Below are positions 33,001 to 36,000 of a DNA stretch of 64,000 nt, piece after piece. The stretch spans positions 384,001-448,000 of the forward strand of contig CM000432.1 in NCBI GenBank assembly GCA_000165345.1. Direction: 5' to 3'. A program made the position numbers. The number at the start of each line of letters is the position of its first letter. Position 1 is the stretch's first letter.

Positions 33001-36000
33001 AATGAATGATGAAGATATATCCAGAAGTAATATTGATACTATGGGAAGTGAATTGGAAATAAAAAATCATATTCAACAAAATAACATTCAGATTGAAAAA
33101 CAAGAGTATGTAATACATCCATTAATATCAAATTTAGGAATGGAAAAAAATCAAATAGCTCAAGAATTTAGCTTTATTTTGGGAGATGAGTTATATAATA
33201 CTGGATTATATTCACACAATTCTGAAATGGTTGATAATAATACTAATACCAATAATAATAGCAATAGCAAAATATTATACGATGATGAAACTCTTCATGA
33301 TAAAGGGAAGTTATTAAATAGTAATTATTTACAAGTTTATCAAAATGACGCGAGTAAAAATAGTAATATTACCTATAGCGAGAGTGATTTGAACTTGGAT
33401 AAAAATAAGACAACAAATAATGTCGTTAAATATTTTAATACAAATATAATTAATAGCTTTGACAATTTAAATAAAGTGGAAAAATTACAAGATAATTTAT
33501 TAATAGAAGAAATTAATGAAAGTAAATTTCAAAACAATTTAGCCGTTAGTGAAAACAATCGTCAACTCAATAATAATTATTTATCATTAGGGATACCAGT
33601 AATTTCTCCAATAATAAGAACTAACTTTGAACAAATTGGAACATTCTATTGCCCAGGAATTAATAAAGTTAGATATTGGGCAATGTGTTTTATTGGTTCT
33701 GAAAGATCTACGGAACCTGAATTTGATCTAAGTAATTACAGTGATACAAGACGAGTATTCTATAAACAGTCAATAATTACAAAAGTAAGTCCAAATCACG
33801 AGCCAGAACATCAAGGAGTAGTTCATCATCCTAATTGTTTGGAAATTGTACCGAAACCTAATGAACCATGCGAAAGGTGTAGCTTATATATTAATAACAG
33901 ACAATTGGCACGCGTTATTAGTAAAAGAGCTACTCGATTACAAGAGATGTGGGATAGGGTAGTAGCTGGCGAAAGTATTATAAACGGAGGTAAGATCCCA
34001 CAGTCTATTATTTCCGCATATAATCATAGGATAGACCACTGGTCTAGATGTAATGATCCCTTAGAAGCTATCACACGAGCTCTTGCTGGTTGTAGACAAA
34101 GAGACTACACCAACTTCTTTTGGAAAATACGAGAAAATTTACTAAAAAATTCCAGATTAATTAGGAATCAATTATAACAAAATAAAAATTTATTAGGTTT
34201 AATACGCACACAGTTTCCCGCCTAAGGTTGTATTCATTGTTAACCCCTCAAATTAATAGAAATGTTAAAAATTGTAAATAATATATTTGGGGATAAATTA
34301 ATTAAATATAATTATGCGTAAATTTTGTATCAATTTTTTTTGGGGGGCACGCATATCCAATTTTTGAAGATTCTTATATTTCAAAATTATATAATTCCTT
34401 TTTTTAAAAAATTTTTGGGTGTCTATAGCAATTACTTGCTTTCTTTTTTTTTTTTTTTTAAAGAGTCATAAATATTTCTTAAAAATAAATAAATATGCCA
34501 GTTCACAAGGTGACTTCAGTAGATGGTAAGTTTTGATGAATTCGATTGAATAAAATTGTTGTGAGTAAACAAAGTGTGTTGGATAGAGGAGATTGAGCTG
34601 AACTGCATATTGGCATTTATTCATGAATGATATTAGAATATATATCTAAAATTGAAGTCATATTTTGCAGCAGGTTATATCTATCTAACTTTGTAACCCA
34701 ATTTTATTTGATTTTAATGTTTGAAGGGCTTGGAAGTCATTCATAAAAAAAAAAAAAAGAAAAAGTCCTAACTTTCCGTTTTAATTTCTTTTTGATATTT
34801 TTTTCCCACAATTTTTGAATTTTTAGAATACAAAGCTTACATCTCAAGACAAGGTCTTGTTGTTGTTGATTACTTTGCCACATGGTGTGGCCCATGTAAT
34901 ATGATTGCTCCAAAATTGGAGGAATTTAGTGAGCAAGTCAAAGATGTCTGTTTTATCAAGGTTGATGTCGATTCTCTCCCTAGTATCGCAGATGCGGAAT
35001 CGGTTAGAGCTATGCCTACATTCAAATTCTTTTTGAATGGTAAGGAAGTAAAGAGTGTGGTTGGCGCAAATTTCGAGATAATTCAACAAGCAGTTTTGGC
35101 TAATAAACCATAATTACTATTAATTGGTGCTAGCTAATCAAGATCTTTATCTTTCCCTTTTTTAAGTGGACTTTAAAATATTCTTTTTACACTGAATGAT
35201 CGAGTATTTTATTTGTTTTGTATTGCATAATTGTTTTTTTTTTAGATCTTTGTATTTTGTCACTGATTGCTTGTTTGATATATTATAGAATTAACAGTGA
35301 AGTTTGATTCTTTGATTCATCTAAACTATGAATTTAAAATTGCTTGTGAAAGAATGGGATAAAAATGAGCAAAAAAGGTTTAAATTAAAATGAAATCATT
35401 ATTATAATTTGAATAAGAATATTACAATTATTAATAAATATAAAGTTAATTTGAATGAATTTAAATTACTATATAGTTAAATCATTCAACTATTTACATT
35501 CACAAATCAAGCTAATGTTTTCACCTCTCAAAAGTAGCTGTCCTACACTAGTTTCTCTTCTAACTTCTTTTTTTGTATATACTTCAGATGCTTGGTCAAG
35601 CACGATATTCATATATTCATCAAAACCCTATAGACGTATTAAAAGTTATTTAATAGAAATGAATAATAATAAATAATAAATAAATTGATAGCTTACCTGT
35701 ATTACTCCCTCTAAAACTAAATTCTTGTGATCATATAACCAAATTTGTACTCTTTGTTTAGATGTAAACAAGTGGAAAATCTGGTTGATTGGTTGCAACA
35801 TCATTTTTTGAGTCTTTCTCTTTGTTTGAGAATTCATCTTTGTTAAAATTTCTCAATAGTTTACTTCTTTTACTCTTTGAAATTTAAATATTTAATAAAA
35901 TTATTTTATTTAATATTAATATAAATTTTTATATTTTTAAATATTCCAATTCGTTATCTTTTTAATTTTTTTTTAATTTATAAAATAATTAAATTATATA

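What the first reader, a model, noticed from the sequence alone, without database searches (positions are those of the whole stretch)
35490..35837. Unannotated two-exon SmE (snRNP core) gene hidden between thioredoxin and the A/G/P-repeat gene
The ORF track shows only a 63-aa minus-strand ORF and an antisense 73-aa plus ORF here. Reading the minus strand gives exon 1 (35837..35697) ending VLEGVIQ|GTAAGC and an acceptor CTATAG|GGT at 35628. That yields a 92-aa protein aligning along its whole length with SmE, including the GFDEYMN segment that sits in exon 2. Automated ORF callers would miss this kind of 5'-intron small gene, and the model also rules out the plus-strand ORF 35455..35676.
Basis: partly seen in the sequence, partly recalled or inferred. 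Interest (0 to 1): 0.55.

Follow-up and report, generated by a model that had tools for sequence, protein, structure and literature searches.

The report
Known two-exon SmE gene, Cryptosporidium
This is the ordinary, already annotated Cryptosporidium parvum gene for the spliceosome core protein SmE; a 69-base intron splits it, so a simple ORF list shows only fragments.

Summary
On the minus strand, exon 1 (35837..35697), a 69-nt GTAAGC...CTATAG intron (35696..35628) and exon 2 (35627..35490) join in frame to give a 92-aa protein. It hits Pfam LSM at 2.9e-16. Its nine best solved-structure matches are all SmE (human SmE 1.2e-23); the next paralogue, LSm5, scores 1e-6. The predicted fold is Sm, and its best structural matches are SmE chains of spliceosomes.

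Comparison supports the splice. The intron sits at the same phase-0 position (IQ|GFDEYMN) in C. muris, C. felis and another Cryptosporidium assembly, with lengths of 51 to 146 nt. Against the 88%-identical relative, exons are 97% identical and the intron 77%. All 8 exon differences are synonymous. The antisense 73-aa ORF has no family hit and is not kept in other species.

The "unannotated" part is wrong. This exact 92-aa sequence is already in GenBank and UniProt as C. parvum small nuclear ribonucleoprotein E (EAZ51247.1, QOY42277.1/CPATCC_001902). Orthologues are annotated in C. hominis, C. tyzzeri, C. ubiquitum, C. muris and C. felis. The window is 99.6% identical to a C. parvum chromosome that carries the same 348-nt gene call. 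It is a correct reading of a known housekeeping gene, with low interest.

The parts
35697..35837 (-). SmE exon 1 (141 nt, codons 1-47, MNSQ...VLEGVIQ). It encodes the N-terminal helix and the first part of the Sm1 motif. The start is the ATG at 35837.
   Evidence: sequence and translation; this is the first start codon after an upstream stop; homology to human SmE begins at residue 7, upstream of the internal Met12/13, so the first ATG is the start.
35628..35696 (-). Phase-0 spliceosomal intron, 69 nt, GTAAGC...CTATAG, 16% GC, with in-frame stops.
   Evidence: sequence, GC, stops; same position in C. muris (146 nt), C. felis (51 nt) and GCA_039657295.1 (71 nt); 77% identity against 97% for the exons; the only junction that keeps the Sm domain; published C. 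parvum introns average 84-99 nt and 22% GC.
35490..35627 (-). SmE exon 2 (138 nt including the TAG stop, codons 48-92, GFDEYMN...LRGENISLICECK). It encodes the rest of Sm1 and the Sm2 motif.
   Evidence: alignment to solved SmE continuous across the junction, with a single 2-residue gap further on in exon 2; GFDEYMNIV invariant in 13 orthologues.
35455..35676 (+). Antisense 73-aa ORF: a chance ORF, not a gene.
   Evidence: no Pfam hit; the longest antisense ORF shrinks to 50, 38 and 32 aa in three other Cryptosporidium loci.
35838..36335 (-). 498-nt, 18% GC spacer between the stop of the upstream A/G/P-rich gene and the SmE start. Presumed to hold the SmE promoter and 5' UTR. It contains a G-rich island, TTTTGGGCGGGCTTTGTGGGG, about 190 nt upstream of the ATG.
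   Evidence: The island is conserved in the 88%-identical relative L001 but not found in C. muris or C. felis. A promoter role is inferred, not tested.

Best explanation
Window 35490..35837 (minus strand) is the Cryptosporidium parvum orthologue of SNRPE/SmE, one of the seven Sm core proteins. Its pre-mRNA carries one 69-nt phase-0 intron after codon 47. Removing the intron joins the two halves of the Sm1 motif (...LEGVIQ|GFDEYMN...) and yields a 92-aa Sm-fold protein. By homology, this protein takes the SmE position in the heptameric Sm ring that assembles on the Sm site of U1, U2, U4 and U5 snRNAs, forming the core of the spliceosomal snRNPs.

Shown here: the gene structure, Sm fold, SmE orthology, purifying selection, conserved intron position and conserved gene order.

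Inferred: actual splicing in vivo (supported only indirectly by a published annotation statement), ring assembly and snRNA binding.
For: The CDS joins in frame to 92 aa. Pfam LSM scores 2.9e-16 against a 23.4-bit cutoff (59.3 bits). The nine best PDB sequence hits are all SmE (8xi2_e 2.6e-24, human 3cw1_E 1.2e-23) and run uninterrupted across the exon junction; their only gap is a 2-residue one within exon 2. The next paralogue is LSm5 at 1.1e-6. The AF2 model (pLDDT 77) shows a helix plus five strands, and its best Foldseek PDB hits are the SmE chains of spliceosome, U1, U4 and U7 snRNP structures. The identical protein is annotated in GenBank and UniRef as C. parvum small nuclear ribonucleoprotein E, and the same gene call sits on C. 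parvum chromosomes. The window is 99.6% identical to one of these over 8.3 kb. The intron position is identical in four Cryptosporidium genomes, with lengths of 51, 69, 71 and 146 nt. In a fifth, a Logan ORF call (P0012) reads through it in frame as 29 extra residues at that exact spot. Exons are 97% and the intron 77% identical to L001, and exon differences are 8 synonymous to 0 non-synonymous. Gene order myosin - Brr6-like - A/G/P protein - SmE - thioredoxin is conserved in C. muris and C. felis. Baptista et al. 2022 state that introns of the CPATCC annotation, which includes this model as CPATCC_001902, are 100% supported by RNA-seq (PMC8744675).
Against: I did not examine transcript data for this specific junction. 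The RNA-seq support is a blanket statement about an annotation set, not a gene-level check. The donor GTAAGC differs in its last base from the GTAAGT seen in C. muris, C. felis and the neighbouring thioredoxin intron. No biochemical data exist here for ring assembly.
Confidence: 0.96

Rival explanations
1. The locus encodes a different Sm/LSm paralogue (LSm5, SmF, SmG or similar), not SmE.
For: All Sm/LSm proteins share the fold. LSm5, SmG, LSm8 and archaeal Sm proteins also give significant hits, and C. parvum LSm5 (3pgg) appears among the fold matches.
Against: SmE hits from 9 organisms score 1e-9 to 3e-24, and all rank above the first non-SmE hit (LSm5, 1.1e-6). Identity to SmE chains is 35-52%, against 19-31% for other Sm/LSm chains, apart from one unidentified chain (7qtt_i, 44%). 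SmE-specific N-terminal residues (QKxMxQPIN) are conserved.
Confidence: 0.02
2. The gene is not spliced. The product is the 63-aa ORF (35646..35837), or the locus is a decaying pseudogene.
For: ORF callers report the 63-aa ORF, and it exists as a Logan gene call. No junction-spanning reads were inspected here.
Against: The 63-aa product has no Pfam hit and lacks the Sm2 motif. Its last 16 residues come from a stretch that differs in length and sequence among species, while exon 2 is conserved and in frame only after splicing. The 8:0 synonymous to non-synonymous ratio against a relative with 88% DNA identity argues for selection on the spliced 92-aa product.
Confidence: 0.015
3. The plus-strand 73-aa ORF (35455..35676) is the real coding feature here.
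For: It is the longest single ORF overlapping the interval.
Against: It has no family hit. It is AT-rich and low in complexity, and it is broken to 50, 38 and 32 aa in three related genomes while the minus-strand exons are conserved.
Confidence: 0.005

Closest known systems
Cryptosporidium parvum small nuclear ribonucleoprotein E (GenBank EAZ51247.1; QOY42277.1 = CPATCC_001902; KAK9172903.1; KAL5369274.1)
   Same: Identical 92-aa sequence, and the same 348-nt two-exon gene span on the chromosome records.
   Different: Nothing. The window feature is this gene.
Human SNRPE / SmE (PDB 3cw1_E and 87 other entries)
   Same: Alignment of residues 7-88 to human 8-87 at E=1.2e-23. Sm1 GFDEYMN is identical, Sm2 L(R/K)G(E/D)NI is conserved, and the fold is the same.
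   Different: About 45% identity. Sm2 has Arg-Gly-Glu-Asn instead of Lys-Gly-Asp-Asn. There is a 2-residue insertion in the loop before Sm2 and a different C-terminal tail (CECK). Gene structure was not compared.
SmE orthologues of other Cryptosporidium species (C. tyzzeri TRY51958.1, C. hominis CUV05547.1, C. ubiquitum XP_028874076.1, C. felis, C. muris RN66)
   Same: 70-99% protein identity, the same phase-0 intron position and the same flanking genes.
   Different: Intron length and sequence differ (51-146 nt). The C. meleagridis (135 aa) and C. ryanae (107 aa) models have aberrant C-termini that look like annotation errors.
C. parvum LSm5 (PDB 3pgg)
   Same: Sm fold from the same organism.
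   Different: Only 26% identity and E=4e-3 by sequence. It is a paralogue belonging to the LSm2-8/1-7 rings, not the Sm ring.

Membership tests
Sm/LSm superfamily (Pfam PF01423 LSM) | Sequence matches the LSM domain profile above the curated threshold | tested here: met
   59.3 bits against a cutoff of 23.4, E=2.9e-16, residues 25-89 covering profile positions 4-65 of 66.
Sm/LSm superfamily (Pfam PF01423 LSM) | Sm fold: N-terminal alpha-helix followed by a strongly bent five-stranded antiparallel beta-sheet | tested here: met
   The AF2 model (mean pLDDT 77) has H17-20 then five strands: E29-34, E40-49, E55-66, E69-80, E85-90. 357 PDB matches have E<=1e-3; all 50 shown come from Sm- or LSm-containing complexes.
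Sm/LSm superfamily (Pfam PF01423 LSM) | Sm1 and Sm2 motifs separated by a variable linker | tested here: met
   Sm1 (...LEGVIQGFDEYMNIVLD) and Sm2 (GQLLLRGENISLI) align with those of solved SmE. G48-V56 are invariant, and G82 and N84 are at least 90% conserved, in 13 orthologues.
SmE (SNRPE) orthologue group | Closer to SmE than to any other Sm/LSm paralogue | tested here: met
   The top 9 PDB sequence hits are SmE of human, yeasts, C. elegans, Chlamydomonas and others (2.6e-24 to 7e-9). The first other paralogue is LSm5 at 1.1e-6. All but one of the top 30 structural hits align at 37-52% identity; those checked against the sequence search (8ro0_e, 6qdv_e, 8xi2_e, 3jb9_H, 9l5r_a) are SmE.
SmE (SNRPE) orthologue group | Single-copy orthologue in the genome, with the six partner Sm genes (B, D1, D2, D3, F, G) present | not tested
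   Only a 64-kb window was available, so the rest of the genome was not scanned.
SmE (SNRPE) orthologue group | Assembles between SmF and SmG in the heptameric ring on the snRNA Sm site | not testable with these tools
   This needs co-purification or structure work. It is inferred from homology only.
Spliceosomal (GT-AG) intron | GT donor and AG acceptor, removal restores the reading frame, position conserved among orthologues | tested here: met
   GTAAGC...CTATAG, with the frame restored. The phase-0 position is identical in 4 genomes despite a 51-146 nt length range. It is the unique junction that preserves the domain.
Spliceosomal (GT-AG) intron | Spliced transcripts observed | not testable with these tools
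   No read data were available. The only support is indirect: the statement that introns in the CPATCC annotation are 100% RNA-seq supported (PMC8744675).

The most novel reading that the evidence does not exclude
Cryptosporidium has lost most of its introns (about 4-11% of genes have one, PMC4637869). The most novel reading not excluded is that this 5' intron persists at exactly the same site in SmE across the genus because it is functional. One possibility is splicing-dependent autoregulation of a core spliceosome component through retention of the stop-containing intron. Nothing here tests this. The intron sequence itself is poorly conserved, which argues against embedded regulatory elements.
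Probability: 0.07. Interest if true: 0.3.

Novelty: already known. Interest (0 to 1): 0.06.

Why it matters
It matters little beyond quality control. It shows that the first-stage reader can reconstruct a correct split gene from raw sequence, and that prokaryote-style ORF tracks fragment small eukaryotic genes with 5' introns. The gene itself is a standard housekeeping component of the spliceosome. It is already present with this exact model in C. parvum annotations, with orthologues annotated across the genus. The one practical by-product is that the C. meleagridis and C. ryanae public models of this gene look wrong at the C-terminus and could be corrected by comparison.

Tried and rejected
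- **Literature search for the gene or its accessions:** a search for the accessions EAZ51247, CPATCC_001902, Q5CR90 and EAK87908 found no paper. The search 'Cryptosporidium' plus 'small nuclear ribonucleoprotein E' found only an unrelated gene-order paper.
- **Supplements of Baptista et al. 2022:** I looked for gene-level RNA-seq evidence, but no supplementary files are held.
- **Rfam scan of the whole window:** I checked whether the intron or flanks hide an RNA gene. Only two tRNAs turned up, far away.
- **Alternative splice junctions:** 20 in-frame GT..AG combinations exist, and 19 delete conserved Sm residues.
- **Unspliced 63-aa product and the antisense 73-aa ORF:** both rejected, with no family hit and no conservation.
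- **Other Sm/LSm paralogue identity:** rejected on the score gap.
- **Upstream G-rich motif (GGCGGG/GTGGGG):** conserved only in the close relative, not in C. muris or C. felis, so I make no claim.
- **Thioredoxin mapping:** my first coordinate mapping of the thioredoxin gene was off by 2 nt. I redid it.

Full report
**What is in the sequence**

On the minus strand the structure is as follows:
- The ATG at 35837 opens a 141-nt exon ending ...GGAGTAATACAG.
- A 69-nt stretch (35696..35628, 16% GC) follows, beginning GTAAGC and ending CTATAG.
- A 138-nt exon (35627..35490) follows, beginning GGTTTTGATGAATATATGAAT and ending in TAG.

The two exons join in frame (279 nt) to give a 92-aa protein: MNSQTKRKTQKMMLQPINQIFHLFTSKQRVQIWLYDHKNLVLEGVIQGFDEYMNIVLDQASEVYTKKEVRRETSVGQLLLRGENISLICECK. 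Reading through the 69 nt meets stop codons.

Between this ATG and this stop there are 20 GT..AG pairs that keep the frame open. Nineteen of them delete conserved residues. Only the proposed pair retains the full domain, and it is the only one with a GTAAG donor.

**What the product is**

The 92-aa protein matches Pfam LSM (PF01423) at 59.3 bits against a cutoff of 23.4 (E=2.9e-16). The unspliced 63-aa ORF and the antisense ORF match nothing.

Against all PDB chain sequences, the nine best hits are all 'Small nuclear ribonucleoprotein E':
- They come from Chlamydomonas (2.6e-24), human (1.2e-23), C. elegans, fission and budding yeasts, and others.
- The alignments cover residues 7-88 and run without interruption across the exon junction (...EG.I.GFDEYMN...); the only gap is a 2-residue one further on in exon 2.
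- The next paralogue is LSm5 at 1.1e-6, followed by SmG, LSm8 and archaeal Sm proteins.

An AlphaFold2 model built on 13 orthologues (mean pLDDT 77) has a short N-terminal helix followed by five strands. Its best Foldseek matches in the PDB are SmE chains of spliceosomes and of U1, U4 and U7 snRNPs, at 37-52% identity. Other Sm/LSm chains match at 19-31%.

Homology to human SmE starts at residue 7, upstream of the internal Met12-Met13. The ATG at 35837 is also the first start codon after an upstream stop. The start is therefore well placed.

**Is it spliced?**

I could not inspect reads, so I tested the model by comparison.
- **Public gene calls.** On Cryptosporidium assemblies the orthologue has spans of 348, 350, 422 and 333 nt for products of 92, 92, 91 and 93 aa.
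- **Conserved position.** Solving for the single GT..AG intron that reproduces each deposited protein puts it at the same phase-0 position in all four, between ...IQ and GFDEYMN.... Lengths are 69 nt (C. parvum), 71 nt (GCA_039657295.1), 146 nt (C. muris) and 51 nt (C. felis). The donors are GTAAGC, GTAAGC, GTAAGT and GTAAGT respectively.
- **A fifth species.** A prokaryote-style Logan ORF call (P0012, 121 aa) reads through the intron in frame. It shows 29 unrelated residues inserted at exactly this point.
- **Exons against intron.** Against the 88%-identical relative (L001), the exons are 97% identical and the intron 77% with indels. All 8 exon nucleotide differences are synonymous.
- **Antisense ORF.** Its longest counterpart drops to 50, 38 and 32 aa in the other three species.
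- **Fit to known introns.** At 69 nt the intron is somewhat shorter, and at 16% GC more AT-rich, than the published C. parvum averages of 84-99 nt and 22% GC (PMC4637869).
- **Published RNA-seq statement.** Baptista et al. 2022 state that the introns of the C. parvum IOWA-ATCC (CPATCC) annotation are 100% supported by RNA-seq (PMC8744675). That annotation contains this very model (QOY42277.1, CPATCC_001902). This is indirect support, not a gene-level check.

**Where the window comes from, and whether the gene is unannotated**

An exact-sequence look-up finds the 92-aa protein in NCBI as EAZ51247.1 ('small nuclear ribonucleoprotein, partial [Cryptosporidium parvum Iowa II]'), QOY42277.1 (CPATCC_001902), KAK9172903.1 and KAL5369274.1. 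UniRef names it 'Small nuclear ribonucleoprotein E' of C. parvum. Variants at least 90% identical (99% for C. tyzzeri) are annotated in C. tyzzeri, C. hominis and C. ubiquitum. More distant orthologues are annotated in C. felis, C. muris, C. xiaoi, C. ryanae and C. meleagridis.

The neighbouring 199-aa A/G/P-rich protein is EAK87908.1 / Q5CR90_CRYPI / CPATCC_001901. Window 31492..39828 is 99.6% identical to C. parvum chromosome record CM109964.1. That record carries the same 348-nt, 92-aa LSM gene between the A/G/P gene and a thioredoxin gene. The gene order myosin - Brr6-like - A/G/P protein - SmE - thioredoxin - 620-aa protein is kept in C. muris and C. felis.

The gene is therefore hidden only from a plain ORF track. 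It is not missing from public annotation. SmE carries an EAZ accession while its neighbour carries an EAK accession. This suggests it was added after the original 2004 annotation; that is my inference from the accession series. It would fit the documented under-calling of introns in that annotation, where the share of genes with introns rose from 4.3% to 10.8% on reannotation (PMC4637869).

**How it works**

By homology with solved snRNP and spliceosome structures, the protein is the SmE subunit of the seven-membered Sm ring (the standard model, from my own knowledge: order E-G-D3-B-D1-D2-F). That ring closes around the Sm site of U1, U2, U4 and U5 snRNAs. The loops carrying the Sm1 (GFDEYMN) and Sm2 (LRGEN) motifs line the central RNA-binding hole.
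- **Shown here:** gene structure, fold, orthology, purifying selection and synteny.
- **Inferred:** splicing in vivo, ring assembly and snRNA binding.

The rivals are each very unlikely on the evidence above: another paralogue, an unspliced product or pseudogene, and the antisense ORF as the real gene.

**Verdict**

The gene model and SmE assignment are correct, but the 'unannotated' claim is wrong. This is an already known housekeeping gene, so interest is low. I do note that the first-stage reasoning was accurate.

Noticed in passing
window 34495..35113 (+): The neighbouring thioredoxin gene is also a small gene with a 5' intron. Exon 1 is 34495..34525 (MPVHKVTSVD), the intron is 34526..34826 (301 nt, GTAAGT...TTTTAG) and exon 2 is 34827..35113, giving the 105 aa of the public model. 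It converges on SmE, with 376 nt between the two stop codons. An ORF list shows only its 70-aa C-terminal part.
   Followed up: partly
P0010 (C. meleagridis, 135 aa) and P0015 (C. ryanae, 107 aa): The public SmE models of two sister species have aberrant C-termini. The C. meleagridis protein continues after ...ENISLI into residues resembling a translation of the 3' flank seen in the window (FVQINFIFI...), so its model apparently bypasses the stop. The C. ryanae model diverges within the Sm2 motif. Both are probably annotation errors.
   Followed up: partly
window 36010..36045 (-), about 190 nt upstream of the SmE ATG: A G-rich island, TTTTGGGCGGGCTTTGTGGGG, sits in an otherwise 18% GC spacer. 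It is conserved in the 88%-identical relative L001 but is not found upstream of SmE in C. muris or C. felis. It could be a promoter element; this was not tested.
   Followed up: partly
window 36336..36935 (-): The 199-aa protein has a hydrophobic N-terminal segment that looks like a signal peptide, a long Ala/Gly/Pro-rich low-complexity region and a hydrophobic C-terminal segment. It has no Pfam hit on record and is annotated only as hypothetical (EAK87908.1 / CPATCC_001901). Genes of similar size occupy the same position in C. muris (173 aa) and C. felis (207 aa).
   Followed up: no
window 3546..3617 (-) and 4166..4237 (+): Two tRNA genes lie about 550 nt apart on opposite strands. They were the only Rfam gathering-threshold hits in the 64-kb window.
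   Followed up: no
whole window; ORF 32315..34177 (+): The window contains 106 N bases, and the 620-aa ORF translation contains X residues. The source is therefore an assembly with ambiguous bases. It differs at 24 mismatches and 2 gaps over 8.3 kb from C. parvum CM109964.1.
   Followed up: no
L001 (GCA_039657295.1, CM077710.1): This assembly encodes an SmE protein identical to that of C. parvum but is only 88% identical at the DNA level over 8.5 kb. Its homologue of the 620-aa protein is called as 543 aa. It is presumably a different Cryptosporidium species; I did not identify it.
   Followed up: no
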